A stretch of 64,000 nucleotides of DNA from Raillietiella orientalis. Its lineage: Eukaryota. Below, in pieces: positions 24,481 through 51,850 of this stretch. The notes beneath the pieces are model-generated. The model had not been told where the DNA came from. It saw only the letters and a list, made by a program, of their open reading frames with translations, and did no database searches. The translations under genes and the position numbers were made by a program. Positions within the stretch are counted from its first letter, which is position 1. Every line of letters begins with the position of its first letter. The DNA lies in NCBI GenBank assembly GCA_036172245.1, contig JAYWIR010000011.1, positions 1,240,001 to 1,304,000 of the forward strand, in the 5' to 3' direction.

Positions 24481-26229
24481 GACTGCTCGTTGACACGTTG
24501 AAAGGCCGCAAATCGGAGAAGTCTCTCCAGGTCCTCGTCGGTGGGCACCGATGGTAGGACGCGCGTTTGCGGAATACGAGCAATTCACCGTGAGTCCGAA
24601 GCGAGTGATTTCGACTGGAGGAAAAAACCAAGTCCTTGGTTTCTCGTCGCATTCGATTCTTCCAGCGACCTGGCAAACAAACGGCCCTGTGGAAACCTAT
24701 GCCCCTTGCGGGGCAAAGAGTGAAATGCGCTGGTTGCTAAAGCACTCTAACCGCACGTCCAGCATGCAAGACGGTTCCAGGAACACGCGGTTCAGATGGT
24801 AGGTTTCAAAAAATCGTGATTCACTACTCACACTTTGGTAAGATCGCAACAGGGTGGTGGATGTCGACGATATCCCTCTCCCTCTCGGTCAAATACGTCA
24901 AACGGTCTGCCTCCAGGGTGTGCAACGAAAGTTCAGGGCAGAAGTCGCTGATACCGGCTGGTTGTTTGTGTAAGTGGCAGCCTTTGTGCAAGCCAAACAA
25001 GGTGAAAGGCGGCAGTGTTCGGCACACTGGATTCATCCCAAACACTTGAATCGCGTTGGGATCCTCAGACGTGTTACGCTGGGAATTGGGCGCTCCAATT
25101 AGAGAAACGGTTTCGAGCTCATCAGCTGTGATGCGAGCGCTGTAGGAAAGGGTTCATATAACGTCCCATTCGCGCTCTGACCTAACTGTATCAAACCTCG
25201 AGTGATTCTTTTGACCCTCACGATTGCGCAAAAAGGCACAAATGAATGCAATGATGACTCTCTGCGAAGGTCGGCTCAGTTATGCGTGGGGTCACGGGCA
25301 ACGGGAACATGGGATGCATGCCTGTTCATTTGGGGGCTGATTAGCAATCAGTTTCCGGGAAAAAGTTAAAAACGAGCGAAGACTATCGCGTGCGATAATT
25401 TGCAATACACACTGCGACCGCAGCGTGACTCTACTCGGATTCCTTCGGTGGCAAAGGTAAATCACACGGATCACTTACGCCTGAGCCTTAGCGATGACCT
25501 TTGCGAAAAAAATTCCTCCTGTTACGTACACCGATCACTGGGAATCTCGTGATCAGAGCATCATCAAATTCTGGGAGCATTTTAGCATTCGACTCGCTGC
25601 TATGGCGAGAATGCTGTGACCGGCAACGTTCCTTCTTTCACCCACATGTAAAATAGGCACACGTGCCTGGTGATTCCTTCCTTTTGGTCGAGGGGATGGT
25701 GAGCACCCAGTTGTCCTTTTTTCGTAAAACCCAACTCGACATCATGAGCCTCGGGGCGAAGTAAATCTCGGACGCGACATCGCCTGTAATCATTTTACTT
25801 ACTTTTCGTTTTAGGACAGACCATTCGGTTCCACTATTACCGTCTTACGATATTCTTTTTTTTTTGCCGTTGAAGAAACCTTCGTTTCATCGCATTCGTG
25901 TTTGCGACTTGGAAGATAATTTTGGAACTCAGAATCGCAACATCGCCTAATTGTGACTACGGAAAGAAATTGTGAATTTAAAGTTTGGATCAAAGGCAAC
26001 GCATAAGCATCTATTGCTCTGATGCTCGTACTTCAGATCGGAAGAAGAATTCTTCCACCCACAACTGTTCCATGTAAAGCGCTTTTCTAGGTGTGCATTA
26101 CTTTCCTTTCCAGCATTCGTTATTACTGGGAATCGTAATTGCAAATATTAATGCTTGATCTGCTGAAGGACTACATTTTTCGGCTCCGTTCACCTTTATG
26201 AAAGGAGTACACGAACTTATTTGGAGAGG

Positions 26230-26231
<2 letters not shown>

Positions 26232-26295
<64 letters not shown>
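26232..26295. repeat. (GA)n microsatellite
   Basis: About 32 perfect GA units. Confidence 0.95.
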
Positions 26296-26298
<3 letters not shown>

Positions 26299-26966
26299 TG
26301 CAAGTGATTCTACTGACTTGACGATTTGTCGCTGCTGAACGCAGTATCTTTTCTTGTAGCTGTTCCTTCGCATGTTGCTCTTTCCCTTGCTCTGCTTGTA
26401 GACATCTTCCCACGAATGGCAAAACGGCATCAGTAAAGGTAAATATTTCCGACTGATAAGCGACACTTTCTCGTTCAGGCCATTAATCTTGAGTTCTTTT
26501 CCGGAGTGTGAATTTCTATCACTTAGTCTTGAATCTATTTTCGAAAATGCAATTCTTGAACTGCAAGGCAGTTTACCTGCACAAATTTGGAAAAACAGAA
26601 ATACCGATCTTGATAAGATATGCAGAGATAGATAGATTGATGAAATAGATAGAAAAAAACCGCCCTTCCCCCCACCTCACAAATACATACAACTGCTTTC
26701 TACTATGCAGCATTTTTGAGATCTTTTTACATTAAATAACTAAACACAAAGTATGCACACATATATATATCATGTTCCTATAGTAAATACAAAAATATAT
26801 ATTAAAATGCTAGATTTCCTGGACGGATACTGTGAACACTTTCTCATTTGCATAAATCTGCTGCTGTCTCACAGCTGTCAAAACCTTTTGCTTACTGCAT
26901 CTAAAACATGAAATACAAAATACTCAAACTACACACTGAAATACCATGTGTCAAATCTGTGGATAA

Positions 26967-27190
26967 TCAGGCTTTGTCAAGAGAATAAACTCCATTTCTC
27001 TGTCTATACAATCGTCTTGTTTGAGTTCGTGCTTCTGTGAAGTATAAAATTGCTGCAACGTATTCCATGAATGTTCCAACTACTGCCAGCCCAAAAGACC
27101 ATGATAAATAATTGTACTGCCAGTCTGGCATCCAGTCTCTTGAGTCCCCAAGGGCACCAAAAACAATGACTGCAATAGTACCACAGCAAG
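26967..27190 (-). CDS. kune: Claudin last exon (TM3 end, ECL2, TM4, tail), apparently shared by both isoforms
   Basis: tttatacag acceptor; ACCGTIAVIVFGALGDSRDWMPDWQYNYLSWSFGLAVVG...SLDKA*. Confidence 0.92.
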
Positions 27191-30100
27191 CTGTATAAAG
27201 ATGCATTAATGATTTTGATCAGTTAGAAGACTATATGATACCTGAGAGCAATAACGTTGCAGCAATCACTTTTAATAATAAAATGAATTTGTCAGGCAGA
27301 CAACACATCAGCATGGTGAGAATCATAATTAGGGCTGCCAACAGTAAGGTGAAACAAAATGTAAAGAAAACTTGCACTGCGACAAAAAAGGCTGAAAAAA
27401 ACAATAAACAATAAACAAATGAATGAATCAAATTCAGTATGCAATAATTCATTAATAGTGCCAAACTTATTCTCTGGATGGCAAATAAAAGTACACATGA
27501 AATCTACAACAAAACGCAATGACTGCGTTAGATACAGTCTATATAGAAGAGTGGCATGATAGATGTCCAAGGGATTATGTGATGAACTCACAATATTGTA
27601 AAAAATATCCCAATGCATATAATTCGAAAGAACGCAAGCTGATTAAGGAGGAAGGACGTGTTCCAACGACTTGGCAAGGCGAGACGAAAGTCACCACGCA
27701 ATAATCTACGGTTCCCATTTTCGACCGGATGCTCATGCAAGGGTTTGCCTCCTATCACTGTACGTACACAAAACCGAAGTTTGCCTAAACGACCCATCCG
27801 CAAAATCCAGGCGTGTCATTCTTTTAACTCGTTTTTAAGCTTCACGGAGAAACCTCCTCTCTCTTTCAAACTTCCGTTTACATCTCTTAAGACGGTGTTT
27901 GCGAACACAGCCTCCAAGTGTACCGTATGCGTTCCTACACAAACTTGATCTTCCATTCTGTTGTGAGCAGTGCTGTCGCAGGCAGTTGGTAAACTATGCA
28001 GGCCCTATTGTGCTGGACGTGGGCGCGGGAAGTGCAGTGGGTCCAGGTTTCCAGTTCACCCCGGCACGGCAAAAGTGTGCCGGGGGGGGGGGGGGGGGGG
28101 AACGCCGCTCGCACTTCCAGTCAAGGTCACCGCTTTCACATCACTTTCGTTCTTCACGCGCCACCAGTTGACTCCAGCACTTTCGTAAACAGCGGCGACC
28201 TTTTTTTCAACTCCCCACTGATGAATCACAGGGGAAAAATTGACGGAAACAGTATGGGCTATCAAAGATCTGGAAATCAAACGGGGGCACGATGAAGCGT
28301 GACAACACACACTTGGGAAAAATTGGCGAGAGGTCCACAGACTTATTAACAACGTATCCCCCCCCCCCCCACGATACCTACAGGCTATGAATACTTCGTT
28401 TCTTTTTGCCTTTTTTTTTTTTTAGAAAAAAAAAAAAAAAAGGAAAGAAAGAAAAAGAAAAAAAAAACTTAAAGCGTGCTGCATCAAGAGAATCTTTTTT
28501 TTTTTTTCTTTTACTCAAAATTCACTGGATTGTTATAAATGTAAATCCACTCACGTGGCATAAGGAAACCTCTAATCTCATCGTATCCTTTGGTAAATGG
28601 GTTATATACCCACCTACATCCTACAAAAAAACGGCTTTGGTAAAAGTCGTTCAAGTCGGGAAGGGATCGGAAACAGTGAATCCACAATCCTAGCCGATCG
28701 AACTTGGCGCCGTACACCAAGAAGTCTGACTGCAGCCAGTTGGGGGTCCCGAAGGCCACCGCAACCACAACGAAAGTGGCCGGCACGAGTAAGACCCCCA
28801 GCTTTCCAGCCAGGGTGCTCCTCCGCCAAAAGCTGTTGCGGGAGCCCATGGTCGTTCTTCGCCCGCGTTCTCACCTCGCCCACCTGACTCCACTGCCACG
28901 CCACACCGACTGACGCGCCGCTAAAAAGCGCCGCAGATAATCTGTCGAAAATCAACGGAAGTGCACTACCTATTTTGCGCAATCTTTTCCGTTCGTTACG
29001 GGGGTTTCCAAAGTCGTTTTCCGAGCCGAACTAGGCCACCATCTACGAGAATTGCGACGCCGCCCATTTCCACCTCCCCCCCCCCCACCCTTCCCCCCCC
29101 CCGCACGCACCACTGGCAACCGTGTTTTCAGCAAGGATCCCGCGGTTGCATCGTTCCGTTTGTTTACCGCACCTCAGGGACGCCCTCTCTCCAGGTGGGG
29201 GACCGCGGTCGCTGCATGGGGGGGGGGGTTCATTTTCCTTGATCCACGGGGAAAATGGCTACTGGAGTAAATTCTTTCCTCTCTTCTTCTTCTTTTTTTA
29301 CGACAAAAAAAAAAAAAAAGGCAGCAAACTAACTTTCGGAACGGTTGGGATGGTTTTCCTTATTCGTTCCAAATCGCTCAGGGAAAAAAACCAAAAACAA
29401 TCAAAAAAAAAAAAAAAACGCACTGACCCGGCATCAGTAGTAATTCGTATTCGTTGCTGTATTGCTGCAATGATAACGTTAAGGAAAAAAAAAAAAAAAA
29501 AGCACGCGACGATGTAGTTTTCTAGAAATAGGATTCGGTTTAAAATCCGGGGAGCGCGCGAATCGAGCATTTTTCAAAAAATACGCTTTCTTTTTTTTTT
29601 TCTTTCCTTTTCTCTTTCACATGAATTTAATCGCCACAAAACTAAATTTGTTATTCCAAACTTTCTCGATGCATCTTGGAGGTACAGAATACAACTGGGA
29701 AATGTAACACGAAACTAGTAAAAATAATTTCAAATCATATACAGTAAATAAAAAAAAAAAACTTACGTGGAAGGAGAAAATCATAAATGAAGTGATAATC
29801 TTCATCAAATATCCATTTGCAGCCTGTAAAAACTTGATCATGGTAATGTTTGGGATCCTCAAAGCTTTTAAAGCAAGCTTCCCATAGGCCTAAAAGATAG
29901 GATGCCAGAAAACAATTTTTGAAATAAAAGTGAAAAAACAAAACAAAACAGAAACTTATGAAATCACAACAAAGGCTGAATCAATATTTGAAAACATCAC
30001 ATGGCTAACCTTATCAATGCACACAGTAACTTGCAAAAACAGCAGAAAAAAAGAAAAAAAAAATTATCCTTTACAGGCAATCAAATTAGAATCGAAAATA

Positions 30101-31440
30101 TGCATCTCCTGAGCTCAGGGCACATGAAAGATCAATCCGAAAGACCAATTGAAGGTTTACAATTCAAAACCAAGCAACTGATTTATTTTAATATATGAAG
30201 ATATCAAGGGCAATATAATAAAGATGAGTATAATAAGTTATTCAGCAATAGCACAAACATTGAAACTGAAATCACATGAACTGAAGCTTTTGTTTTCAAC
30301 CACATAAAACAATCTTCAACTCAAGGAAATTGAAACAAAACTTCTACAAGATGCAACCTTTCCACAATACCATTGTATTCATTTATTCACTTGGCTACAA
30401 CCAAGTATTCATTTCATTGGAGCATACATTTTCACTGAGAAAGCTTTTTCTATATTTCAAATTCTGAGTTTGAATCCATTCCATATCTAAATAGACACAA
30501 AGTTAATCTAGTAAAAATTCCAGTATTGCATCCATGAATATTAATTGACATGTTTAAAAGTTAGCTTACAAATATACTATGGAGCAAAATGAGCTTACTT
30601 GCTGTACCTAATTCTGAAAATCACTAAAACGAATATCTATTTCTGAGAACAAAGCAAATATTGAAATGCATGATTAAGAACTTAAATATTCACATGCTTT
30701 CCAAAACATTTAATCTAATCATTAGCATCAATAGCACCTAGAAACATTTGGGGGAGGGGGGAGACAAAATTCATTATGAACCAAAGAATACTGCTGTAAT
30801 GGACTGAGGTTTAATTGAAGGTCCTTGACACCAAAAATCGTTACACAGATCGAGTACACCAATTAACACAAAATCAAATGCAAATGCATTCAAGCAAACT
30901 TCTGGAAAACTTGCAACAATTAAATAATTGCGTTTTCCTGTGACAAAATTTGGTTGAAAACTCAGAAGAAATGAAACACAGATGTACATTTTTCTTTCTG
31001 GGTCACACAGAACAAAGTCAATTTTCTGAACTATAGGAACTTCTCTTTGCTTCATTCACACAAAATTCACTAACGAAATTCTCATTTTTTTTTTAATAGT
31101 CAGGTGATCATTTGAAAGAAGCAAGCATCAACTTCATTAATTAGGTACAAACCTTGATTCCTTAACCTAGCACTTTAACATCGACTCCAACATACATTGA
31201 ACAATATTTCTATATCTAGAAACACTTGGAAACCTACACACGTTAATATTACTATCTGAGAAATCAATGACTACAACGTAAAGAAAATCTGCCACTACCT
31301 AGATTTAAAAATTTGGGATCGGAAAGCGTCCCATCCGTTTGTAACCAATACGGGGTAGTGAAAGAAATAAACATCGAAATAGTTGCAACCAAAATGATCC
31401 ATGATGCATGAATTATGGAACTCGATAAAATAGAATTCAT
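26967..31440 (-). CDS. kune: Kune-kune-like claudin (PMP22/EMP/claudin family), 4 exons, 212 aa
   Basis: Exons 31299-31440, 29767-29889, 27242-27391 and 26967-27190 are joined by GT-AG phase-1 introns, 639 nt in total. They contain the claudin signature W-GLW-C-C (PYWLQTDGTLSDPKFLNLGLWEACF...GCKWIFDEDYHFIYDFLLP), four TM segments and GDSRDWMP..SWSFGLAV. Confidence 0.9.
27242..27391 (-). CDS. kune: Claudin exon (TM2-TM3), apparently shared by both isoforms
   Basis: ttttttcag acceptor and gtatca donor; FFVAVQVFFTFCFTLLL... Confidence 0.92.
28555..28849 (-). CDS. sinu: Sinuous-like claudin first coding exon (N-terminus, TM1, ECL1); 222 aa if spliced to 27391
   Basis: ATG at 28849; AFGTPNWLQSDFLVYGAKFDRLGLWIHCFRSLPDLNDFYQSRFFVGCRWVYNPFTKGYDEIRGFLMP closely matches Sinuous ECL1 as recalled; donor C|gtgagt, phase 1. 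Confidence 0.9.
29767..29889 (-). CDS. kune: Kune-like claudin exon 2 (ECL1)
   Basis: cttttag acceptor and C|gtaagt donor; GLWEACF...GCKWIF...DFLLP. Confidence 0.92.
31299..31440 (-). CDS. kune: Kune-like claudin exon 1 (TM1)
   Basis: ATG with an in-frame upstream stop; MNSILSSSIIHASWIILVATISMFISFTTPYWLQTDGTLSDPKFLNL; donor G|gtagtg. Not in the ORF track. Confidence 0.88.
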
Positions 31441-34400
31441 ATCTTTGGTAATCCGTTTTCAGCAAAAACATCCATCCTCACCAAGATGCATCGCATTAGC
31501 GAGCAACTTATGCAGATGATTTTTCATTACCAACACACAAATTTCGATTTTCTTTTAGTGAAACCGAAATCCCAAGAAAACGAATAATGAACTAGCTAAA
31601 ACAACAGCGATTCACATTAGTACTTCAATTATGAAACAACATATTAATATATCAAGACATTAATACATGATAACTATAGCACTTCCAAATGTGTGCTTTG
31701 AAAGAATGAAATGATAAATGTGGGAACGATGATCTCCCAACTTTTTCAAATTCAGCACGTAACCCCAATGTTCTTACGGAATTTCGAACAGTAATAATAC
31801 CTCTAGTGATCTTTTTGGAAATATTTACGTAATTTTTGATTACATTTAATCACTATTAATTATCCAGTTACTCCTTATTGATAATCCAATCACTCGATAA
31901 TTCGATTTGTAATCTACTGATTTCTTGGAAGGCTGACTAGCACAAATCAGATTTTGTCTGACTAAAGAATGCACAAGTGAAATCTATGCCTCAGAGATGT
32001 CGATAAATTTGTATAATTCAATGCATTCAAATGCCGATGCTTCTAGTACTTACCTTCCCATTTCGTTTTAGGAAGACGTATTCATTGATATGTTAGAAAT
32101 GGCAGTTTCAATAAAACTAGAAGGAAAGTACCAATGCATAGAATGAAGGGAACACAACACTTTAATAATCTTTCACGAGGATGGGCAAGAGATCATGAAG
32201 TCTCTTGAGGAACAAGATGTTTCCGAAAACGATGATTATTTGGAAAACCTCTTTAGCAAGATTTCTAAATTCGAAGTGCATTCCAAATTCATATAAATTT
32301 ATGGGGATCGATGATAAACACATTGGCCGCATTTATTATTGAAATGCAATTATTCTGAGTGATTTTTCTCAGGTATCCGTCTGAAGAACAAAGAATTGAA
32401 TTGTTCCTCATCATTCCTGCTAGTTCGTTTGAAAACCTCGAAAAGATCGTATTCCAAGATGACTTTTGTTTTATTCACGAAGCATGTACCCTAACTGTCG
32501 TAACATATTTCTTCGACTTGGAATGCTAAGTGCAACCTTTTACATCATACTCCTGTTATTGCTGCTTTCTTTATACAAGAAGCACTTCGTGACACATTTA
32601 TTGGTTTCCATACTTACATATCTCCTTTCAGAGAAACATCAGAACTAATCTTCCTCATCCATACTTAAGCAGTTCGCTTTTTGTTGCGTTCCTTTTCATT
32701 ATTTCAACCCAACTTTTCAAAGCATTAATATATTGCTTATTTTCAAAAAAGTTTGCCTTATTTAGTTTTTTGTTTTAAAGCTGTGCAAGCTCGAATACGA
32801 TGACTTTTTGGATAAAAAGAACAGTGTGCAGCGATCATTACGGTTCTCGACTGTTCCTAAAGATAATTTTTGAACTCATGTTGATGACGTCTCTAATGCT
32901 TTGAGAAATCGTCCCATTCCAGATAGGAAGTTTCCATCAAAAAATAGTCATCTTCCACGCGTTATTCGAGGCAGTCTGTGCACTCAATGCTTGCATAAAG
33001 GCGTTCTTGAATTCGCTTCTTCCCACCTCAGACAAAAAATCAGCAGGTTTTCCAAGACCTCCTGAAAACACTTCTCCTCGTCAAATTTTGGTGAGTCATT
33101 TTTTTTTTCTTCAGCCAGTTTGAGTTACTCAGATTAGTAGATTGTTCCCCCCATTCCCCTATGTTTCCTGCATTCATTTTGCTGACTTGATGGCCTAGTC
33201 TCTGCAGGTAGACAGTCTTGGCAGCACTTCGCCTTGCTTTGAAAGCGAGGCGAAGCAACCTCCAGGATCTTCGGCTTCTGATGATAGATCGTCTCTTTGA
33301 GGCTGCAAGTTCGGCATAATTGAGATCGTCCGGAAATCTCCGGTATCCGCTAGGCTTAAATCTGCTATCCATCTTGCCGCTGTGAGATGACGATATCCGC
33401 TATCGTCCTTTTCCGAGGAGAGACGGGCCAGTAGGACCGAGGCGTCACTGAGATCGAGATGAGTTCCGAGTTCGTCTTAGTGCATGACGCGGGATCTTCT
33501 CATCCCGTCATCCGAGAATTCGGGAAGCGCGTGCCGTTTGATGTAAACTCTGCATTGTGGACCAGTGAGCCTGTCTCGGCAGTGCGAGCGTAACCGAGGT
33601 CCATGCATGGCCATTTTGAAACGGGGCGAGGCAGCTTGCTGTGCGATTTGGTATTTGCGAGCGGCGTACGGTGTACGGGAACCCGCTGCTGGTTCGAACC
33701 GCTCGTATAGAAGCGCCGCTCTGTTGACCTTGGGTTTTTCTTCTTCGGGAGAATTCCAGGTTTTGCCAAGCCTTCTGCCGATCCGAATGGAGAACTTTTC
33801 GACCTCTCCCCCCCTTCCACATCTCCGGAAATTCTGCACTCCCGCCTCCTCCAGCTCGCGCTTCCCTTTTCATCTTTCGCCAGGGATCGCTTCTTCAGCC
33901 CGTCTCTTCGACGGGGAGCACACCACCTTCCGGAGGGTTGTCTTGGGTTGCACGCGAAAGGACAAGTGACCTCGCTATCGTTTGCAAGAGGAGGCGAAGC
34001 AGAGGGGGGAGGAAGGGAGAGAGGAAAGGGGTCCTTTCACTTCCTCCGGAATGATTTTCGCCACGACCTCCGGTCTGCAGACCTCCAGAGACCGCTGCTC
34101 TTCCCCCGTCCTCTCGGGCAGTCCGTCTCAGCCTCAGGCGCGCCCGTGGTTTGCGGGAAGCGGCTGTCTCGCCGACGCGCTCCCACGGTTCCCGTCTCCC
34201 GTGGCTTCCCGGTCCGCTTCTCATCCTTCCCTCCCCTTCTTGCTCCGGAAGAGTGGGCGGAGGTCACTTCCGGCGGGCGAGCTGGTGCGGGGCGCGAAAG
34301 GACTCTCGCTCCCTTTCCGCCCGAAGCGACCGTTTCCCCCTGGAGCGAGGAGGAATGGCGAAGTTGACGCAGGAATGGAAGGGGAAGGATCGGAAGGTGA

Positions 34401-34759
34401 GCTGCTTGACTCGTCTGGACGGGAAGGACCCCTCGGGGAAGGGGAGAGGGACAGTCACCTTCCTCCCTCCCCCTGCCTGACCGGACGCGAGCTGACCGAG
34501 GTCTTCTCCAGACAGTGCTCCCCTTTCGGGCGACCTATACCGGAGCAATCCCTCCCTCTCCTCCTCCTCCTCCTTCCTTCCTTCCTTTTTTGCTCTTTAC
34601 TGATTTTTGCGCTGGAGAGAGTGAACGGTCAATCACCGTTCAAATTTCAATCACAATTCGGCTGTGCCTGACCGGATGGCCTCGCCATTCCCCCGCCAAG
34701 CCGGAGGTCGACTGGGAGGAGCTACTCCTCCTCGGACCTGGTCGAGCTGATGGCGCCGC

Positions 34760-36216
34760 CTACACAGTGACGGCGTCGACCTTGTCCACGATGACCGTTC
34801 GCGACGACGGGATGGGCGCGGCGGTTGTTCCCGCCGTGCCACCGCCGTCTCCGCCGGAGGGCTGAACGGGTGCAGCGTCGGCGGTCCTGCCGCCCGCCGC
34901 CTCCGTGGTTGCCTCGCCGCCGTCGTCTGCGGCGCCGGTGAACGAGAGCGTGGCGAAGTGGAAATCCGCCGGGTCGTCAAACCAGAGGCCTCCCGGCAAT
35001 GCCCCGGGGCCTCCCTGCTGCGGGAGGTGACCCACCGGGAGGGGAACTGGCGAGGGGAAGCCGCCGCTCGGAGCGACGGCTCCGGGCTCGTCCGCCAGTG
35101 TCGCTACCAGTCCACCGCCGCCGCTCTCCCCGTGGGCCGTGGGGCGGACGGCCGAAGCGTCCGGACCGACGGCCGCGCCTCCGGGGGTCGGGGTGGCCGC
35201 TTCCTGACCTCTGGAAGTCAATGGCCGCGTCTCGAGCACCTCTGGAATGGGGCAAGTGTGAAGGGGAAGAGGAGGAGGAGGCCGGGGAGATCCGGTCCCG
35301 GCGCATCTTGCTGGAGGCAGAGGACGTACCGGGAATGCCCGCGAAGGGCCGACGCCGGGCTTCAGACAGGCGGGAGCTCCCCAAAGGATGCAGCGGCGGG
35401 CCGAAGAAGGGTTCCGAGGACACGGGGAGGTAAGGGTCGTCGTTCGGTTCTCCCAGGAGGGACACCAAGCTGCCGGCGACCTCGGAGATGATGCCGAAGG
35501 GGTCGGCGACGAGGTGACGGTCAGCGCAGCCGTTGTCGCCGTCCGCGGAAGGGTCGCAGCCCACCGCCCTGGCGCGGGTGCCGCCGCTTCTTGGGCGCTG
35601 CTGCTGCCGCCGCTCGCCTCCTCCGCCCGCCGCCGCGCCCTCTGGCCGGCCAGCGTTCCCGGAGATCGGTGCCGCTGGAAAGCAGGAAAGAAGGGGGTGG
35701 AAGAGGGTGGGTGAGGGAAGGAGGGAGGGGAGCCGCGATGGCTGCTGCGGCGAACACGCCCTGCGTGGAAGAAGTGTCGGAGAGGGGTGCCGGCGAGAGG
35801 GACAGCGTCTCTCCTCGCGCGCGCGTGCCAGCCTTGCTCTCGGGGACCACCGGAACATTCAGATGGCGGCTTTCTCCACCTTCGCGATCAGGGGAGGGTG
35901 GCGCCCCCTCTCCCCCCCAGCGGGCGGATTTTCCGGTGGCGCACGAGCTGCCTCTCTTCCTGCACTGGCGCCACCCGCGCCCCCGTCCCCCTTTTGAGCG
36001 AGCCTACCCGGTCTGCCGCCGCGCGAGAAGAGGGGAGGGCGTCTTCACGTTCGGGGAGGTTGGAAGGGAAGGAGGGAGGAGGGGATGCACCCGACGACCC
36101 TCTCCTAGAATCGCGCACCCGGCCCCCGACTTACCGGGAGCGCCTTGGTATCCCTGGAGGACGAGGAGCAGCGTGGCGAGAGAGGCGGTAAGCAGCGGCC
36201 GCAGGGTGGGCGCCAT
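34760..36216 (-). CDS. Uncharacterised secreted Gly/Ala/Pro-rich protein, 3 exons (36135-36216, 35330-35674, 34760-35241), about 302 aa
   Basis: Signal-peptide exon MAPTLRPLLTASLATLLLVLQGYQGAP ends in G|gtaagt. Acceptors ctgctttccag and ccccattccag have long pyrimidine tracts; donor G|gtacgt. All introns are phase 1, giving 909 nt open to TAG. Confidence 0.7.
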
Positions 36217-37810
36217 CGTCGTCGTCGTCGTCGTCGTCGCGCCTGCCGTTTCTTTCCCGCGGGTGGCGTTCGAGCGCTGCCTCTGCGGTGAGCGACCGCG
36301 GGGGACCCTCCAGGGCTTTTTAACGGACCGGCCGACTGCCCCGAGGGTCGCCGGTGGCGGGGCGAATGCGGAGCTCCCGAGGTCACGGTCAAGGGAGAAC
36401 CCCCTCTCTCGGCTCGTCAGCGCCAGCGCGGGCGTATCGCCCGCCCTCTTCCCCCCCTCTCTCGCGCCCCCCGGTAGGCAGGAGTCCCGACCAGGAAGAG
36501 GGGCCGTTCGCGGTGATCCGGAAGCGGAGGGACGTGAGTCGAGCGCCCCGCCCTCCTTCCGGGTGCGTGCGAGGGCGCGGAGGTCACCCGATCGGTCGAC
36601 CGCTGGCGTCGAGTAACGGCGAGGTGGCGCGCGCTCTAGTGCTGGTGGGCGTCCGTCTCTCCCTTCCGGGCCTCCCCGACCCCGACTCCTCCCGCTCCCG
36701 CGCGGTCAACGCACGAGCGCCCCGTCGAAGCCGCCGCGAGCGGACCGCGAGACTCCCTCGTCCGGCTCGTTCCGCGCTTGCACGAGCGCGAATTTTCCCG
36801 CCTTCCCACCCCCCTCCTCCTCGGACCCTCCCCCCCTCCTCAGCTTCTCCTGAGGGAAGGTCAGCGCTTTCCCTCCCTCTCCCTCCCCCGTCTTCAGGGT
36901 AAGCGTCCGCACGCTTGGGAGGTGTGGGGGCGATCTATCCCAGAAGAAAGCCACGGGCAAATGGGGAGGGACGGAACCGCGTGTCTCCACTTCGCCTTCC
37001 TCCTGGAAGGCGAGGAGGAAGGAGGGAAATTCGATCGAGAGGGCAGGAGTCAAAGTTCGGAGGAGTGCCGTCGTCCTTCTTCGCTCCCCTTCCTCCCTTC
37101 GGCCCTCGGCTGAGCGTTCCAGAGGAGAGATTGGGGTAATGGAGCTGGGGGTCTCTGCGTGCACGGAGGCTGCCGGAGCTCCCATGATCCTCCCGAGAGA
37201 CGGTCACCCCACATCCAGCAGCCGCCTCCTCTCTCTCCTTTAGCGCGGGTTGTGCACACCGAGGTGTGGAGGATCCTGCGAGTCCAGGAGCGGCAGGGAC
37301 CCCGCGCTCGCGGTTCCCATGGTGACCTCGCTTGAGGCGGCGGCGCGAGGCGCTCCTCGAGGTAAGAGGAGCGAGGAAGGAGCAGATGGAGGAGCTGTCG
37401 GGGTTGCTACGGAACCTGTCCTCCCTCCTCCTCCTCTCCCCCCCTCCTTTTTCCATTCTTCTTTCCCTTCCTTGGATGCCAGGGGGCGGTGCGGCGGAAG
37501 CAGCGCCCGAAGGCGTGAGCAGGTCTGAGGGAATCGACCGAATGGGGAGGAGCGAAGCAGGAGTGTGTAAAGGGGGAGAGGGAGGGGTATCCATAGAATA
37601 GCCGGCGCGCGATTCCACGACCTCTTCCTCCATGTCGGAGAAGGCCTTCCTTTCCTCCAGAGGGACCGCAGTGGTGAGTACGGAGGGACCGGGCAGGGGA
37701 TGGAGAATGCGTCCGGGTCACCTACCACGGGGTTCGACCGTGGTCGGACGCACGTGGCGCCCGAGGGCTCTTCCCTCCAGGCGCTCGGGTGCGCAAGAAA
37801 CATTCGGACG

Positions 37811-37849
37811 GCTCGCAGCCTGCCTGCATGCCGCAGGCAGGCTGCGAGC
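37811..37849. repeat. Perfect 17-bp inverted repeat with 5-nt loop
   Basis: GCTCGCAGCCTGCCTGC-atgcc-GCAGGCAGGCTGCGAGC. Confidence 0.9.
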
Positions 37850-40800
37850 AAACAGCTCTCCTTCCACTCCTCTTCACCTCCCCCCACGGCCTTCCTCGGT
37901 GCTGCCGACGCGGCGCCTCTGCTGAGATGGCGCGGTTCCTCTGCCCCGAGAGAGGCCGTTCCGCCAGCGGCGCGGCCGAGGCTGCTCGTGGCCGGGCGCC
38001 AGCCTTCTCCACGGTGCTTTATGAAAGGCCAAGGAAGGGGACGGGGGTGAAGGAGGAGTCGATCCTCTTGTGGAGGGGTGGGGATGACTCTTTCTGGAGG
38101 GTATGGAGCTGGGAGTCTCCAGGGTTCGGAGGGTGCATCTCCCCGGGCGAGGCTGCTGGAGTGGACTGGAGCTTCCTCTCGGGGTCGAAGGGAAGGGGCG
38201 CGAGAGATACGGACAAGCAGGTTCGGGTGAGACGGGACGCCCAGTTTCCCCCTTCCTTCCGCCCTCCAGGCACGGAGGAGGTGAAAGGACCGCTGTAGGC
38301 GTCTCCGGACGCCCCGCAGCAGGCACTTCTGGAGACACGCCTGAGGCGATGGAAGGACAGTGGACTACCGTACTGCCGGGAGCGGGCCACTCCACCTCCC
38401 CTCTCCTCTCCACCTTCCCTGCGAGGGAAACACACGCAGAAGCACCGCGATCCTTCCCCTACCGCTCTCTACCTGGCGGTCTCCTACTCAGATCTCCCCG
38501 GGGTCCTTTGCTCCTCTCTTTTTCGTTCCTCCCGAGATTCCGCTTGCAAGGGGCGCCGTCGAGCGGCGCTTGGGTAGCGCGCAAGAGGGAAGAAATGTGG
38601 TGCGTCGAGAAGGGAGAAGGAGGAGGAGAGCAATGGAATGTCGGCGGCGATCCGCAGCGCGGCAAATCGATCGCTGGAGTCACCGGCGGCCCAACGGCAG
38701 TCCTGTCGCGCCCGCTCACCCGGCTGGGGCTTTGTCGGGGAGCGCAGCGTGCTTCTCCCCGGAGAACCTCCTCTTCCTCTCCCGCTCTTCCGCCTTCTCC
38801 CTTCCTGCCCCACCCTTTTTTCCTTCGTGGTTTCCCCCTTCGATGAAGCCCCGTCCAGGGCGCTCCGGATGCTCCGTACAAGGACAGGGCTCCTCCTCCT
38901 AGATGGGCGTCGGCTGTTGACAGCCCATCGCGACCGGCCTGCGCGCTTCCTGGAGGGGCCTCAGGGGGGATCTTGTTGTCATCCTGGCGCCTCATGGGTG
39001 GAAAGTTGCCCTCACGGGTCCCCGCGAAGCGAAAAACAAACAGACGCACATCGGCCTGAAAGCTCCGACTCTCAAGCAGGAAGGTCGCGCGCGGAACGCC
39101 CCGCCCGCGAGGAGTGCGGGCGGGGTAAAATGATAACAAACCTAATTTAATTAAATATGAATTTATTATCGAGTTTTATTTTACAACATATATATATATT
39201 GTAAAATCGAAATCTATAATTAATATCTATGTTGTCTGTATATACATTAATTGATTGTATATACATACATATTATATATATACATTAATTATCGAGTCTT
39301 AATGGTCAACACACACATATATTAACCATTAATGAATTATATTATATCTGATATTTTATATAATGTTTATAATAATATCTTAAAAATTTTAGAATATGTT
39401 CAAGAAAAAACCCTAGGCATTTAGATTAATAAAATGAGCAATTAATAATCTATAATATTACAGTAAGGGCATTTGCAATAAACTAAAAAAAAAAAAAAAA
39501 GATGCGCGAGTTTATTAAACACATGAGTAAAGTTTTACTCTTAAAAGTATTTTTGTATTAATCATGAGATCGTATCACATTTTCGTATTAATAATTTCGG
39601 AGTTTATTTAAAATTCAAAAAGTAGTTTAGTGAGAACATTTTGTTTACTACAAAGAGGAGTTTTTGAGAACTATGAACTAATTGTTGAAGGTAATTATTA
39701 AGGGTGATCGTTAAGTTACTAATATTACGGAAACACCAAATTTAGGATCTAGTTATGCCTTGGCAGTTGGTAAATAAATTCTACGTGTGATTTGTCATTG
39801 GTTTACGTAATGGGATGGATAGGAATTTTGATACGTAGTATTGAATTTTAAATATAAAGGAAATTTGAATTGGCAATGCGCAGTAAGGGTTGCCAGTACG
39901 CGTGCCGGCGGTTACCATTTGAATTCGTTGGTGAAAATAGTAGGTTCAATTCATATTATGAAATGTCATATAAAGTGGAGTTAGTTACCCTCGTACAGAC
40001 AATGCAAGAGTTGGGAAAGGGGACTTTTGTGATTTGGCGGGGAGAATTGTCAGGGAAGCTTGCTAAGTAAATGACAATCCTCGAGGAACTCAACTTCTTA
40101 GTGCTTGTATACATCGCTGATTAGATTACTATTCACAAGTGATTAATCTTAATAAAGAGTAATGACGAGTTCTAATCGAGGTGCAGCGTGCGGAAGCGTA
40201 AGAGTGAATCCACAGTCTGTTAAGCTGGGATACGTGAATGTAGTTTAAAAATGTAAAACTACATTACATTGAAAGAGGATCGAACTGCAAGCTTCTTGGG
40301 GGAGAACAGCGGACGACTTCACGGGAGTGGGAAGTCGCCTGTGGCTCCTGGGAACAGTAGGGTTAGATAAGTCCCAAGATGGTGGCTGTACCGGAAGCTG
40401 TATCTAGGCGTGGGGGGTGAGATTTGCCGAGGATCGATTTGGTGATTGATAATCACGGATTGTTTTTCCGTGTTGCGGTATGGAGTTGCGGTGATGAATT
40501 GATTGACTGGTGATGGGGAACCGCATTGAAAAGGAGGTGATTAGAGTGGGAGTGCTAAGAGTAGGGGTGTCTTTTGTTTTGGGGTAAAGTTAATGAAAAG
40601 TGGTGGTATGCATTCGGATGCTAATGAGTGAAATAAGATTGGTGTTGGATGTAGTAAAATATGGTTTTGATCTGGTGGTGATATGCTCATAAATCAACAT
40701 GATTGATGGATGAAAAAATAAGGATAAGTTCCTCTTTTTTTTTTTGCACCTGTGAGATGGTGGACTGGGTCGGTGATGAACTTTCTTGGCGGCTGTTTTA

Positions 40801-42199
40801 GTGCAAAGTTAGGACTGATTTTCAAGGTATTGCATGCATTTAATTAGTAAGAGTTAGGAAAGTAGGAAAGTAGCAAGGTAAGAATGTGATAGGGAGCTTG
40901 GCAAAAATTTATTTGAAAAGCCATTTCCTTATGAGTGATGCACGGTGTGTTAAAAGGAGTGGCTGTGCTAAGGTAGCTAAGATTAGCAAGGGTTTCAGGG
41001 TAGGGTATACAGCATGGGCGTAGGATGTTTTTTGTTGTTGTTGTTCTTGTCTCAGTATGGGCTTATTGGAGGCTATTCACGAGATGGTTATTTATGGGGG
41101 GGGGGGGGGGGAAGAGAGGGGGGATGAAGGGTTTCGTTGTAATGCATATCATCATGTGGTGATGTGCCTCGGTATATCGGCACGATGGGCTGCTGTGTAT
41201 ACGTTGTGGGATTTTGTTGTATTGTGCGTTTTATTTCTTGTTGTGGAGTGGGGGGAGAGCGGTGAGGATGGGGATAGGCGAGTAGGCTGGAAGCAGGCAA
41301 GAATTCCTGTATGAGCGTGCGAATTCTGGGTACTGAAGGATTCTTTCTCGACTCGGAACGGGTTGATTTTATTGGTCTTCGATTTACAACATCGATGGAG
41401 TTTTAAACGAAGCGTTAAGGCTGGAATATGAGGTTATAGGGGGAATGCTATGAAAAGCGGGAAGTGAAAGAGGGATAGGATTTGTCTAAGGGTTAGAAAG
41501 GATGAATGAGGTGGTAGCTTGGGTTCCTAGTCATGTAAAGACGGAAAAGGATATCATTAACGATGAGAGAAGGGCTTTTTGTTTTTTAGGTTTTTTTTTT
41601 TAGGGGAGTAATGGCATGAAGAAGGAAGGGAAGGGGGAGAGCAGCTTGTGAAGTGGAAGGTTGGCCAAAATATAATTCTGAGTAGGCAGGCGATGACTCA
41701 TTCAAGTTTATTAGGTACTGAGCGTATGATGGTGTCAGCGAAAAGGACGTATCATTCGGGTTGGATGGCTAGAGATGAGAAAGTTTTCCTTGGATATGCA
41801 GCTGTATGGAAGAAAAGCGGATGTTAGGAATAGGAGAGTAATGAATGCAAAGATGCTCATCCAGACTTTAATCATGGAGGATGGTCGGCAAAGTCATGTA
41901 TCGAAGTTTCTTTTGGTCTCCAAGGGGTTCGTGAAGAGGTTTTCGTGTACGTGCTGATTGTTGCTAAGAGAGAAGAATAAAATGTAAAGTGGAGAGGGAA
42001 AAATCGGTCAAAGGTAGGGATAGGGGCGAACAAGGTTTCCTCATAAGAATGAAAGAATGTACTGACCCATCAGGGAGATGGCGGAAAATAGTTCGATAAT
42101 GACTGTAGGAGCTCAGAAACCAGTTTATCCTTAGAGGAGAACGTAACCTAGGAACAATGTTGTTATTAGGAGGATGAGAAATAGGAGGCCTGATGTTCA

Positions 42200-42430
42200 G
42201 ACTGTGGTGCTTTTGCGAGGAAAGTGGTATCGTGCGCGGAAGACATGGAGGCAAACTGCTACGAAGAACAGGGAGGCGGCGTTGGCGTGGATGCAACGTG
42301 GGAGGCAACCGTTGTTCGTGTTGTGCCTGAGAGGGGTGAGTGTTGGGTTTGCATTGGCGTGCAGCTATGGGCCTCCGCTCGTAGCACCGAGCATTGTTGG
42401 TTCGAATCCCCACGTGGAGGATCGACGCAG
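42200..42430 (+). mobile_element. Possible decayed retrotransposon C-terminal zinc-finger fragment
   Basis: ECWVCIGV...STEHCWFE resembles the CxxC...HxxxEC motif of non-LTR ORF2. Confidence 0.3.
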
Positions 42431-42579
42431 GGAACGGGGAGTACATCGCGAGCTCCGGGTTGCCTCCCCCCTCCCCCCCGTAAGATGGCTCTGGATGGCC
42501 TTGGTTGGCTTTGGGTGCGGCACTGGGGGAAGTAGCCGGAAACCGGTTGTCCCCGCTGAATGGTTGGGGTTGGAAGTGG

Positions 42580-43070
42580 ACCCTCCGGTGTCCTTCCAGG
42601 AATCAAGGACTGGCCGGTTCCCTCTAGTTGTGAAGACGGAGCTGTCTTTCCCCTCGGGAGGGGACCCTCCATCGCGTACCATGGAGTTGGTTGGTGCTTC
42701 TCTAGAGTGTGAGGAAGTGCGCTGCTCACTTCGGGGAGAGCCCCTCAGAGAAAATGGGGAGCATCCCTTTGGGGACTTCAGAGGAGGGGTCCCCTCTCTC
42801 TTCAGAGGAGAGGTCCTATTCTCTTTAGAGGAGGAAACAAGGAGCGGTTCCTTTGCGGGGGGGGTTTCCTTAGGTTAAGAGATCTGGGATCAGCCCCTTC
42901 CAGGGACCCCTCCGGAGAGAATAAGGAAGAGGAGGTTCCCTTCGGGGTCCTTTCGGAGACAACCAGGTTGGAAGGTTCCCCTCCCCAGGTGTGAGAGGAA
43001 CGGACTCTCCTTCCGCCGGAGCCCTTCCTGGAATCATAGAGTGGTCCCTTCCAGGAGGGAGACCCCTATG
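42580..43070. repeat. GC-rich dispersed non-coding repeat; inverted diverged copy at 51650-51850
   Basis: 42651-42789 aligns to the reverse complement of 51651-51794 (e.g. cttcggggagag..c.tcagagaaaat..ggagcatcccttYgggg). Confidence 0.7.
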
Positions 43071-44457
43071 ACTTGAAGAGTTGACACGCACCCTTGGGCG
43101 GCGTGGAACAGCGTTGAAAAGCTGCGTGCACGCCAGGGGCGCGAAGACTCTTGAGGCACTCGACGAATGACTCCCCCCCTCCCTGCCCCCCCCCCCCAAA
43201 AAAAAAATACGAAAAAGAAAGTAACCGAAAAAATAATTAAAAAGAAAAACGGATGATAGATATGGAAACTTGTGTGGTGGGAGGGGTGTGTTGCATAAAG
43301 ATGGTGATGGCTGCAATTAGTTGGATGATGAGAAGAATTCCTACGAAGAATCTTAGATGTCAATAGAAAGAGGTTTTTGACGACATGGGCGTATCGATTC
43401 TAAGGGGATTTTTTTTTTAAATGAGGTTTGCTATTAATCAAGAGAACAAAGGGAGGGGGGTATCTTGAGCCATAGGATTATATGTGGGGTGATAATCCTT
43501 GTCATTATAGAGATAGCATCCGTGAAATCAGGTCGCGGGGATGTTAGCTGGAGCGAGTGAGATTTCGGAGAAGACGAGCAGGATGAGTAGGAATGAGGGG
43601 GGGGGGGGGGAGGGAAGAGTAAGGGGTTTGGGATTGAACGCGGGCAGTTCATTGTACGTTAGGGATGCTGCGTAAGAGAAGGCGACTAGTGTGCAAGCGA
43701 GGTAGAGGATGGCGGCGCGTCACGATGCCGTGGAAGAAGACTTAATAAGAATGGTGACAGATAAAGAAGCGATAGCGAGTAGAAGGGCTGTGGTCATGGG
43801 ATAGGGCGGATTCGATCATAGTTACGGTTACGCAAGGAGATGGGTTAATGCAAGTTCCGTGTTGTCCCGGGGCGAGTAGGGATCCTGAAGAGCAGCTGCC
43901 CATGAAAATGTCTAGGGGACGAGTGCTTGGGTATCCGATGGGTTCGGTGCCGTGAACGCTGGATCCAGGACTGCAGTCGGGAAGAGAAGAAGTAGAAACG
44001 GTGGTTGTTGTTTCGGCTGGAGTCGCTGCGTGCGAACGAGGACCTTGTTTTGAGGAGTCTATCGAGGCTAGAGATGATCGCGCTGGGTTTCTCTCTGATG
44101 GGGGAGGAGAGTGCAAGGGGAGAACGAATGTGAAATTCCGATCATGATGGTATCCAGGAGTTGCCAAGGGAATCATGGGATTGTGTCTGGATGCACTCGC
44201 CACGCGAGATCATGGCAATGATTGTCATCGGTCTGTAAGTGTTACTGAATATTAAGATTGATTGCATTTTTTCATTGCTGATGACAGTGGGTGTAGGGAT
44301 AAGACTAGAGAGGGGTGATGTGTTGCTAGGGAGCAGTCTTTTTCGCAAATGACGTGGTGGCCGAATGAGGAACAATATTTGGGAGGCGGTGGGGTCGTCG
44401 ATGGAATAAGGTGCTTATTATCGATGGCTGTAGTGTTATTTTTTGTGTATGTTTGTA

Positions 44458-44499
44458 AGGTTGAGTAGGGATGGGTCACCACCCATCCCTACTCAACCT
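44458..44499. repeat. Perfect 19-bp inverted repeat with 4-nt loop
   Basis: AGGTTGAGTAGGGATGGGT-cacc-ACCCATCCCTACTCAACCT. Confidence 0.9.
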
Positions 44500-44842
44500 A
44501 AGGTTGATGTTTGGGGTTGTGAGGGTGATTTTCAGTGTTATGACAATGTATAGATTTTTAAGGGTTGATTTTTTTCCCCATGCTTTATGTATTTTTTGAA
44601 GGTAGGATAATCCCTACAGTGGGGGTGCCGATTGTAACATGGTGAGGTTATCAAAAGGAGCGCTTTGGGGCTGAAGTTTGCATCCCTGCTTACGCAGCTT
44701 CTGGATCTTTGGTTTCTTTTTTTTTTGGTTGGTACAATCCACTTTGTAAGAGATCTGGGATTCGTTGTGAGGGTGGTAGAAGAGAAGCTGGGAGTGGGAG
44801 GTTTTTCACCCAGATTTGCCGAGTCGTCCATAATGTTTGTTT

Positions 44843-51649: not shown

Positions 51650-51850
51650 TCCTTCTCTGAAGAGAACCCCGAAGGGATGCTCCCGGATTTTCTCTGAAGG
51701 ACTCTCCCCGAAGGGAGTAGCGCGCTTCCCGCATTCTGGAGAAGAGGTATCAACCAGCTCCATCGCACGAGACGGAGGATCCTCCCTTGGAGGGGAGGGG
51801 GCGCCGACATTTGTACAACCGGAGGGAGAACCCCGAAGGGAACCGGTCCC
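51650..51850. repeat. Inverted copy of the dispersed repeat at 42580-43070
   Basis: Reverse complement aligns with 42651-42789 and 42934-42950. Confidence 0.7.

What the first reader, a model, noticed from the sequence alone, without database searches (positions are those of the whole stretch)
26967..31440. One claudin locus appears to encode both Kune-type and Sinuous-type proteins through alternative N-terminal exons on a shared C-terminal half
Seen: a complete Sinuous-like first exon (28555-28849, own ATG) lies on the same strand inside intron 2 of a Kune-like gene. Kune exon 2 ends ...DFLLP + C|gtaagt and the Sinu exon ends ...GFLMP + C|gtgagt, the same residue position and phase 1. Both splice in frame to the single acceptor at 27391, giving 212-aa and 222-aa four-TM claudins. 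I found no second TM2-TM4 half (no other W-M-P ECL2 exon) downstream on the minus strand in this window. Known: in Drosophila, sinu, kune and pickel/Mega are separate genes for septate-junction claudins, and ECL1 is the main determinant of claudin selectivity. Inference: a variable-ECL1/constant-body cassette switched by promoter choice, which is either a derived fusion or an ancestral state that later split into two genes.
Basis: partly seen in the sequence, partly recalled or inferred. Interest (0 to 1): 0.88.

Follow-up and report, generated by a model that had tools for sequence, protein, structure and literature searches.

The report
Two-headed arthropod septate-junction claudin gene
One claudin gene here carries two interchangeable front ends, matching the separate insect genes kune-kune and sinuous, joined to one shared back half; the same layout recurs across arthropods and probably predates the two insect genes.

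Summary
On the minus strand, a two-exon Kune-type cassette (31440-31299, 29889-29767) and a one-exon Sinuous-type cassette with its own ATG (28849-28555) both end one base after a Pro codon at a GT donor. Both fit the single acceptor at 27391 and give 212-aa and 222-aa four-TM claudins (Pfam Claudin_2). The window holds no second TM2-TM4 half.

No RNA data or whole genome were available for this organism, so all support is comparative.
- RefSeq lists K-type and S-type isoforms of one gene, with identical C-halves, in Artemia and Brevipalpus.
- Nine K/S protein sets share C-halves at 97% identity or more.
- Seven genomic contigs from other arthropods show the same K, S, shared-body order with the same phase-1 junction.
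- 32 transcript-like contigs carry one cassette each, never both.
- N-halves split cleanly into K and S clades. C-halves follow taxonomy.

Insects instead have two genes, often in tandem, each with its own C-half. The shared locus is therefore probably ancestral.

The mechanism parallels vertebrate claudin-10a/b and claudin-18.1/18.2. I found no paper describing it for arthropods. Verdict: real, conserved, moderately interesting, and a new member of a known kind.

The parts
31299..31440 (-). Kune-type cassette, exon 1: ATG, N-terminus, TM1 and the start of ECL1 up to ...KFLNLG. 142 nt, ends in phase 1.
   Evidence: Weak Pfam Claudin_2 hit to profile positions 1-24. The K cassette is split at the same place in L037, L043, L032 and L061.
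29767..29889 (-). Kune-type cassette, exon 2: the rest of ECL1 (LWEAC...GCKW...DFLLP). Ends CCA C|GTAAGT, phase 1.
   Evidence: In the N-half tree it falls on the K side of the K|S split (100/99*), together with RefSeq 'kune' proteins.
28555..28849 (-). Sinuous-type cassette: a single exon with its own ATG, holding TM1 and the whole of ECL1. Ends CCA C|GTGAGT, phase 1.
   Evidence: Pfam Claudin_2 E 2.2e-16. Best database hits are 57-70% identical insect proteins, several named Sinuous. Sister to Anabrus sinu in the N-half tree (95/75).
27400..29600 (.). GC-richer island around and upstream of the S exon, not depleted in CpG. Candidate internal promoter (inferred).
   Evidence: CpG observed/expected is 0.8-1.9 here, against 0-0.46 in the flanking AT-rich gene body. 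The island is not repeated elsewhere in the window.
27242..27391 (-). Shared exon 3: TM2 and the start of TM3. It has the single acceptor (TTTTTCAG|CC) used by both cassettes.
   Evidence: A single acceptor lies before the FF[IV]A.Q codons in 7 of 7 related genomic loci.
26967..27190 (-). Shared exon 4: the rest of TM3, ECL2 (W-M-P motif), TM4, the C-terminal tail and the stop codon.
   Evidence: Pfam Claudin_2 E 2.9e-10. 60-71% identical to Daphnia and other arthropod proteins.
31200..32800 (.). Region around and upstream of K exon 1, not depleted in CpG. Candidate K promoter (inferred).
   Evidence: CpG observed/expected is about 0.7-1.2 at only 32-36% GC.

Best explanation
This is one arthropod septate-junction claudin gene with two alternative 5' cassettes. 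Each cassette encodes the cytoplasmic N-terminus, TM1 and the entire first extracellular loop.

The upstream cassette (two exons) is the orthologue of the insect Kune-kune N-half. The downstream cassette is one exon with its own ATG, lying inside the Kune intron in a CpG-rich island. It is the orthologue of the insect Sinuous N-half.

Each cassette is spliced, mutually exclusively and in phase 1, to the same two exons encoding TM2-TM4, ECL2 and the tail. The cell therefore makes a 212-aa Kune-type or a 222-aa Sinuous-type claudin. The choice most likely depends on where transcription starts.

Shown: the exons, frames and splice signals; the orthology of the two cassettes; and the same architecture and mutually exclusive transcripts in other arthropods.

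Inferred: that both junctions are used in this organism, that promoters make the choice, that the two ECL1s give different junction properties, and that insects derived their two genes from this state.
For: (1) Anatomy. Both cassettes have open frames, canonical GT donors one base after a Pro codon, and one AG acceptor.

(2) Family. Pfam Claudin_2 hits the S exon and exon 4 above the cut-off.

(3) RefSeq isoforms of one gene. Artemia franciscana LOC136032101 X1 (S) and X2 (K), and Brevipalpus obovatus LOC141857064 X1 (S) and X2 (K), have 100% identical C-halves and N-halves 37% and 52% identical.

(4) Protein pairs. 130 retrieved proteins were examined; 13 lacked the split motif and were dropped. 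Ten K/S pairs, forming nine sets, share C-halves at 97% identity or more with N-halves at 31-52%.

(5) Genomic loci. Among 62 metagenome loci, seven (L007, L011, L037, L043, L044, L053, L055) show K cassette, S cassette and one C-half in that order on one strand. In 7 of 7, both cassettes end in phase 1 at a GT right after or near the Pro codon, with one acceptor.

(6) Transcripts. 18 S-only and 14 K-only intron-free contigs were found, and none of the 32 holds both cassettes. Two S/K pairs share their 3' parts at the nucleotide level: L013/L039 at 98.6% over 707 nt and L021/L030 at 97.1% over 801 nt. They diverge exactly at the junction and share no 5' leader.

(7) Trees. The N-halves split into K and S at 100/99* with one label change. 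The C-halves follow taxonomy, with 18 label changes against a shuffled mean of 16.4.

(8) Fused gene models. Allacma P0034 and Dermatophagoides P0035/P0036 read K-half, S-half and one C-half in series.

(9) Structure. In AlphaFold models of the Artemia isoforms, TM2 starts at the cassette boundary: residue 89 in the K isoform and 98 in the S isoform.

(10) CpG. Regions not depleted in CpG sit at both first exons, inside a CpG-depleted gene body.
Against: No transcript of this organism was examined, so both junctions are inferred from relatives.

The intron from the S exon to the shared exon is 1163 nt here, against 66-149 nt in the seven related loci.

The layout is not universal.
- L050 has K exons and a C-half but no S cassette.
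- L045-L047 and L016 have S plus a C-half with no K cassette in the 1.3-6 kb of upstream sequence held.
- L012 (6 kb of upstream sequence held) and L023 (1.9 kb held) are intron-free S+C copies with no K cassette.

The window ends 26.9 kb downstream of the gene and no whole genome is held. A distant second C-half therefore cannot be excluded.

For the evolutionary direction, the best C-half tree does not join insect kune C-halves to insect sinu C-halves. The AU test only fails to reject that grouping (p 0.183).
Confidence: 0.83

Rival explanations
1. Only one cassette is still used in this species. The other is a silent remnant of the ancestral arrangement.
For: No expression data were seen for this organism. 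Some relatives have K-only or S-only loci (L050, L045-L047, L012, L023). The S-to-body intron is unusually long (1163 nt).
Against: Both cassettes keep full open frames, start codons, the W-GLW-C-C residues and canonical phase-1 donors. The S exon alone scores 60.6 bits on Pfam Claudin_2 and is 57-70% identical to insect Sinuous. The K cassette is 52% identical to Neodiprion kune over 87 columns. An unused exon would be expected to decay.
Confidence: 0.07
2. These are two nested genes. The S exon belongs to a separate sinu gene whose own TM2-TM4 exons lie outside the window, and only the Kune cassette uses the acceptor at 27391.
For: Insects have separate kune and sinu genes, often adjacent (L032; Agrilus, Chelonus and Anabrus pairs on one contig). 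No whole genome was available to search.
Against: There is no second C-half in the 26.9 kb downstream on this strand. In 7 of 7 related K-S-C loci a single C-half directly follows the S cassette. In the two-gene insect contig L032, the extra C-half sits between the K and S cassettes, not beyond them. Here that interval (29766-28850) holds none.
Confidence: 0.04
3. The gene and isoforms are the same, but the choice is made by mutually exclusive splicing from one upstream promoter, not by two promoters.
For: No transcription start site was mapped. Some copepod-like S isoforms carry long N-terminal extensions that may come from further upstream exons (P0022, P0023).
Against: The S exon has its own ATG with an in-frame stop seven codons upstream. 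It lies in an island not depleted in CpG. S and K transcripts of two related pairs share no 5' leader. K exon 1 carries its own ATG and ends in phase 1, so joining it to the S exon would need an acceptor that keeps the frame.
Confidence: 0.06

Closest known systems
Vertebrate claudin-10 (10a/10b) and claudin-18 (18.1/18.2)
   Same: One claudin gene makes isoforms that differ in the N-terminal part and share the rest. Claudin-10a is an anion channel and claudin-10b a cation pore (PMC9184838, abstract and passages). Claudin-18 isoform 2 is treated as a splicing variant in a paper that notes variants can arise from alternative promoters next to alternative first exons (PMC11178514, passage). That exon 1 of these genes encodes TM1 and ECL1 is recalled, not checked here.
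   Different: The origin is independent, in a different branch of the claudin superfamily (Pfam Claudin_2). One cassette here is split into two exons. The two cassettes are as divergent as old paralogues (42% identity over 69 residues), and each corresponds to a separate essential gene in Drosophila. Ion selectivity was not tested.
Drosophila sinuous (CG10624) and kune-kune (CG1298)
   Same: The S cassette is orthologous to the Sinuous N-half and the K cassette to the Kune N-half. Sinuous and CG1298 are each other's closest relatives in the fly, at 35% identity (PMC2172325, passage). The window's S isoform has three coding exons and 222 aa. Locusta sinu has three exons and 221 aa (PMC11275452, passage).
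   Different: In the fly these are two genes, and sinuous gives a single isoform (11 cDNAs plus 5' RACE; PMC2172325). Insect kune and sinu each have their own, different C-half. Here there is one shared C-half.
Unnamed RefSeq isoform models: Artemia franciscana LOC136032101 X1/X2 and Brevipalpus obovatus LOC141857064 X1/X2
   Same: Exactly the same architecture: S-type and K-type N-halves on a 100% identical C-half.
   Different: They are automatic predictions labelled 'uncharacterized protein', not linked to kune or sinu. I found no paper that discusses them.
Isoforms turned into duplicate genes (alternative splicing traded for gene duplication)
   Same: Insects appear to hold as two tandem genes what other arthropods hold as two isoforms of one gene. 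The K-then-S order and the phase-1 intron are kept.
   Different: The general concept is recalled from the literature and was not searched here. The direction of change is inferred from taxon distribution, not proven.

Membership tests
Claudin superfamily (Pfam PF13903 Claudin_2 / PMP22-EMP-MP20-claudin) | Profile match above the curated cut-off | tested here: met
   The S exon scores 60.6 bits and exon 4 scores 40.7 bits, against a cut-off of 29.1. K exons 1 and 2 and exon 3 match the expected profile positions below the cut-off, as expected for pieces of 40-49 aa.
Claudin superfamily (Pfam PF13903 Claudin_2 / PMP22-EMP-MP20-claudin) | Four TM helices with a large ECL1 carrying W...GLW...C...C | tested here: met
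   The motif is read directly in both cassettes. Four long helices and ECL1 strands appear in AlphaFold models of the Artemia K isoform (pLDDT 85.5) and S isoform (pLDDT 76.2, ECL1 poorly modelled). The window's own spliced proteins were not modelled.
Claudin superfamily (Pfam PF13903 Claudin_2 / PMP22-EMP-MP20-claudin) | Fold similar to solved claudin-family tetraspans | tested here: met
   Foldseek against the PDB with the two Artemia models gave top hits to LHFPL4/GARLH4 and TARP gamma chains. Mouse claudin-15 (4p79) scored TM 0.69 for the S model. This was tested on relatives, not on the window's own proteins.
Sinuous orthologues | N-half groups with proteins named Sinuous/sinu | tested here: met
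   111 hits at E<=1e-8. The best are insect proteins, and the sources name several of them Sinuous or sinu. The window's S cassette is sister to Anabrus sinu (95/75) within a starred pancrustacean S clade. The names are the sources' own.
Kune-kune orthologues | N-half groups with proteins named kune | tested here: met
   The K|S split has 100/99* support. The window's K cassette lies in the mandibulate K group (87/70, not starred) with the Anabrus, Chelonus and Neodiprion 'kune' proteins.
Sinuous / Kune-kune as septate-junction components | Localisation to, and requirement for, septate junctions | not testable with these tools
   Known for the Drosophila proteins (PMC2172325). No functional data exist for this organism.
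Claudin genes with alternative first exons (claudin-10/-18 type) | Two or more first coding cassettes, each with its own ATG, encoding TM1 and ECL1 | tested here: met
   The cassette boundary coincides with the start of TM2 in the models.
Claudin genes with alternative first exons (claudin-10/-18 type) | Both cassettes are spliced to the same downstream exons in mRNA | tested here: inconclusive
   Shown for relatives through RefSeq isoform pairs and transcript pairs. Not shown for this organism.
Claudin genes with alternative first exons (claudin-10/-18 type) | Separate promoters and different barrier or channel properties of the isoforms | not testable with these tools
   Only indirect hints: regions not depleted in CpG at both first exons and no shared 5' leader in related transcripts.

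The most novel reading that the evidence does not exclude
The ancestral arthropod had a single kune/sinu gene. It switched between two very old ECL1 cassettes, which were already distinct before chelicerates and mandibulates split, by alternative transcription starts.

Insects later turned the two isoforms into two tandem genes by duplicating the constant exons. Some other lineages, such as scorpions and certain copepod-like genomes, probably did the same independently.

On this reading, the non-redundant roles of Kune and Sinuous in Drosophila septate junctions descend from isoform-level specialisation of one gene. Most arthropods would tune their junctions by isoform ratio, not by gene choice.
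Probability: 0.6. Interest if true: 0.7.

Novelty: new member of a known kind. Interest (0 to 1): 0.6.

Why it matters
Kune-kune and Sinuous are two of the three core claudins of Drosophila septate junctions and are treated as ordinary paralogues. If most arthropods encode them as two heads of one gene, three things follow.

- Orthology tables and gene counts for septate-junction claudins outside insects are misleading. Several public models fuse both heads into one protein.
- The origin of the two fly genes becomes a clean, datable case of isoforms turned into duplicate genes.
- It gives a natural experiment on what ECL1 contributes. The two proteins differ only in TM1 and ECL1, as in vertebrate claudin-10a/b, so isoform-specific knock-outs in Daphnia, Artemia, mites or ticks could test ECL1 function directly.

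The mechanism itself, alternative first exons in a claudin gene, is not new.

Tried and rejected
- **RNA evidence.** No reads were laid.
- **Earlier scan notes.** Nothing was on record for this genome.
- **Same-species proteins.** The exon-4 search gave no hit above 71% identity, so no annotated isoforms of this organism were found.
- **Literature.** Five searches found no description of alternative first exons or shared C-halves for arthropod kune/sinu. Subscription journals and supplements are not covered. Nelson et al. 2010 on kune-kune (PMC2907205) is not held.
- **Chance or repeat origin of the S island.** Rejected. It matches nothing else in the window except short A/T runs.
- **A third claudin gene in the window.** I searched with the extra claudin-like halves of Anopheles P0131 and Strigamia P0115. 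None was found beyond the known exons.
- **Poly(A) signal.** No AATAAA or ATTAAA lies in the 3 kb downstream of the stop codon, so the 3' end is not located.
- **GC-rich blocks.** The 12 longest ORFs have no Pfam hit. There is no Rfam family, no tandem array and no self-similarity.
- **Insect-stem duplication of the C-half.** The best tree does not recover it. The AU test does not reject it (p 0.183). This is left open.
- **The window's own spliced proteins.** They were not sent to Pfam as wholes, to structure prediction or to the database searches. Exon translations and relatives were used instead.
Full report
**Observation**

- The Kune-type (K) cassette has two exons. Exon 1 is 31440-31299, with the ATG at 31440. 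Exon 2 is 29889-29767 and ends CCA C|GTAAGT.
- The Sinuous-type (S) cassette is one exon, 28849-28555. It has its own ATG, an in-frame stop seven codons upstream, and ends CCA C|GTGAGT.
- Two shared exons follow, 27391-27242 and 27190-26967.

Both cassettes stop one base after a Pro codon and fit the single acceptor TTTTTCAG|CC. The products are 212 aa and 222 aa.

Pfam Claudin_2 hits the S exon alone at E 2.2e-16 and exon 4 at E 2.9e-10. The smaller exons hit the matching profile positions weakly.

A six-frame tblastn of both isoforms against the whole window, at E up to 100, finds no further claudin-like exon.

**Evidence that was not available**

No whole genome is held for this window. No RNA run could be listed for it. 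Nothing below shows directly that either junction is used in this organism. All the support is comparative.

**The same arrangement in other arthropods: proteins**

A search with exon 4 found no protein of this species; the best hit is 71% identical. It did return proteins that share a C-half but differ in the N-half.

A profile search gave 323 hits at E<=1e-5, of which 120 were listed. It includes RefSeq isoforms of single genes:

- Artemia franciscana LOC136032101 X1 (S-type) and X2 (K-type).
- Brevipalpus obovatus LOC141857064 X1 (S-type) and X2 (K-type).

In both genes the C-halves are 100% identical. The N-halves are 37% and 52% identical.

I examined 130 proteins. Thirteen lacked the TM2 motif used to cut them and were dropped. 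Ten K/S pairs, forming nine sets, have C-halves at 97% identity or more and N-halves at 31-52%. One set is a cross-species Daphnia pair.

Three public gene models read a K half, an S half and one C-half in series: Allacma fusca P0034 and Dermatophagoides P0035 and P0036. That is what a gene predictor produces when it runs through both cassettes.

**The same arrangement in other arthropods: DNA**

A scan of metagenome contigs gave 62 loci. I mapped them with tblastn.

- Seven genomic loci show K cassette, S cassette and one C-half in that order on one strand: L007, L011, L037, L043, L044, L053 and L055. Their closest named proteins are from Daphnia, copepods, a springtail and mites.
- In 7 of 7, both cassettes end in phase 1 at a GT right after or near the Pro codon. 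One AG acceptor precedes the FF[IV]A.Q codons.
- Thirty-two intron-free, transcript-like contigs carry one cassette each (18 S, 14 K). None carries both.
- Two S/K transcript pairs share their 3' parts at the nucleotide level: L013/L039 at 98.6% over 707 nt, and L021/L030 at 97.1% over 801 nt.
- Those pairs diverge exactly at the Pro codon plus one base, and share no 5' leader.

**Exceptions**

- L050 has K exons and a C-half but no S cassette.
- L045-L047 and L016 have S plus a C-half with no K cassette in the 1.3-6 kb of upstream sequence held.
- L012 (6 kb of upstream sequence held) and L023 (1.9 kb held) are intron-free S+C copies with no K cassette.

The layout is widespread but not universal.

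**Orthology of the two heads**

I labelled N-halves S or K by a short motif before building the tree. The N-half tree has 55 rows and 90 columns. It splits them at 100/99* with a single label change. Each side holds both chelicerate and mandibulate sequences.

The window's S cassette is sister to Anabrus 'sinu' (95/75). Its best database hits are insect proteins 57-70% identical, several named Sinuous by their sources, including a Drosophila one. The window's K cassette lies with RefSeq 'kune' proteins in the mandibulate K group (87/70).

The C-half tree follows taxonomy instead. The K/S label needs 18 changes, no better than shuffled labels (16.4). The two cassettes are therefore older than the chelicerate-mandibulate split, and the body is shared within lineages.

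**Insects**

Insect kune and sinu proteins have different C-halves.

- Contig L032 most resembles Hymenoptera. It holds a kune gene with its own C-half, followed about 2.8 kb downstream on the same strand by a sinu gene with its own C-half.
- Agrilus LOC108733733 (K) and LOC108733734 (S) lie on one 1.3-Mb contig.
- Chelonus kune and sinu lie on one 0.76-Mb contig.
- Anabrus kune and sinu lie on one 102-Mb contig.
- The phase-1 intron at the cassette boundary is kept in the L032 sinu gene and in five insect-like kune loci (L057, L058, L060-L062). The L032 kune gene has lost it.

In Drosophila, sinuous gives a single 247-aa isoform. Its closest paralogue is CG1298 at 35% identity (PMC2172325, passages). 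Locusta sinu has three exons and 221 aa (PMC11275452, passage), the same exon count as the S isoform here.

**Direction of change**

The shared locus occurs in sequences close to horseshoe crabs, ticks, mites, a myriapod, branchiopods, copepods and a springtail. The two-gene state occurs in insects. The scorpion Centruroides also has separate K and S proteins with different C-halves. Parsimony therefore favours an ancestral shared gene that later split.

In a 65-row C-half tree, insect sinu C-halves are sister to the springtail shared C-half (95/80*). Insect kune C-halves form their own clade elsewhere (100/98*). Forcing kune and sinu C-halves together costs 6.1 log-likelihood units and is not rejected (AU p 0.183).

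The origin of the insect kune C-half stays open. An older duplication with repeated losses is not excluded.

**Mechanism**

AlphaFold models of the Artemia isoforms have pLDDT 85.5 (K) and 76.2 (S, with ECL1 poorly modelled). They place the start of TM2 at the cassette boundary. Each cassette therefore supplies the N-terminus, TM1 and all of ECL1.

Both models match claudin-family tetraspans in the PDB: LHFPL4, TARP gamma and claudin-15.

In the window, the AT-rich gene body is strongly depleted in CpG (observed/expected 0-0.46). The 2.2-kb island around the S exon and the region around K exon 1 are not depleted (0.7-1.9). This pattern fits two unmethylated promoters. It is an inference, not a measurement.

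ECL1 residues set charge selectivity in vertebrate claudins (statement in PMC2172325). Claudin-10a and claudin-10b are anion-selective and cation-selective splice variants of one gene (PMC9184838). By analogy, the K and S heads should give junctions with different properties. This was not tested.

**Comparison, novelty and verdict**

The mechanism matches vertebrate claudin-10 and claudin-18 but arose independently, in the Claudin_2 branch of the superfamily.

The architecture is already implicit in automatic RefSeq isoform models labelled 'uncharacterized protein'. Five full-text searches found no paper that describes it or links it to kune and sinu. Those searches do not cover subscription journals or supplements.

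I rate it a real, conserved feature and a new member of a known kind. Its interest is moderate, because it recasts two core fly septate-junction claudins as former isoforms of one gene.

Noticed in passing
window 33000-39200, 50000-54000, 57000-62000: Blocks of 64-67% GC with CpG observed/expected of about 0.9-1.0 sit among 27-35% GC sequence. They have long ORFs in all frames. The 12 longest ORFs have no Pfam hit, and there is no Rfam family, no tandem array and no similarity between blocks.
   Followed up: partly
window 26600-27400 and 29600-31000, against 27400-29600 and 31200-32800: The AT-rich gene body is strongly CpG-depleted (observed/expected 0-0.46). The regions around the two alternative first exons are not. 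This suggests gene-body DNA methylation with unmethylated promoter islands in this organism.
   Followed up: partly
window 28082-28100, and several runs between 28350 and 29500: Long homopolymer runs flank the S exon inside the island: about 19 C on the minus strand, plus G, T and A runs of 10-17. They may be real or may be sequencing or assembly stutter.
   Followed up: no
window 26217-26309: A (CT/GA)n microsatellite lies about 0.7 kb downstream of the claudin stop codon.
   Followed up: no
window 40000-45000: Strong positive GC skew (0.32-0.53 per kb) over about 5 kb. Unexplained.
   Followed up: no
L032:2915-8766: A contig closest to Hymenoptera holds kune and sinu as tandem genes on one strand, each with its own C-half. 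The kune copy has lost the intron at the cassette boundary and the sinu copy keeps it.
   Followed up: yes
L012:6070-6648, L023:1921-2484: Copepod-like genomic contigs hold an S cassette and a C-half joined without the intron, with no K cassette in the upstream sequence held (6 kb in L012, 1.9 kb in L023). These may be retrocopies or S-only paralogues.
   Followed up: partly
proteins P0034, P0035, P0036, P0131, P0115: Several public gene models look mis-joined. Allacma and Dermatophagoides read both cassettes in series. Anopheles epiroticus P0131 and Strigamia P0115 fuse a kune/sinu-family gene to a further claudin-like gene, which hints at a claudin gene cluster.
   Followed up: partly
proteins P0024 and P0120 (Centruroides sculpturatus): The scorpion has separate K-type and S-type proteins with different C-halves. 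This suggests a split of the compound gene independent of the one in insects.
   Followed up: no
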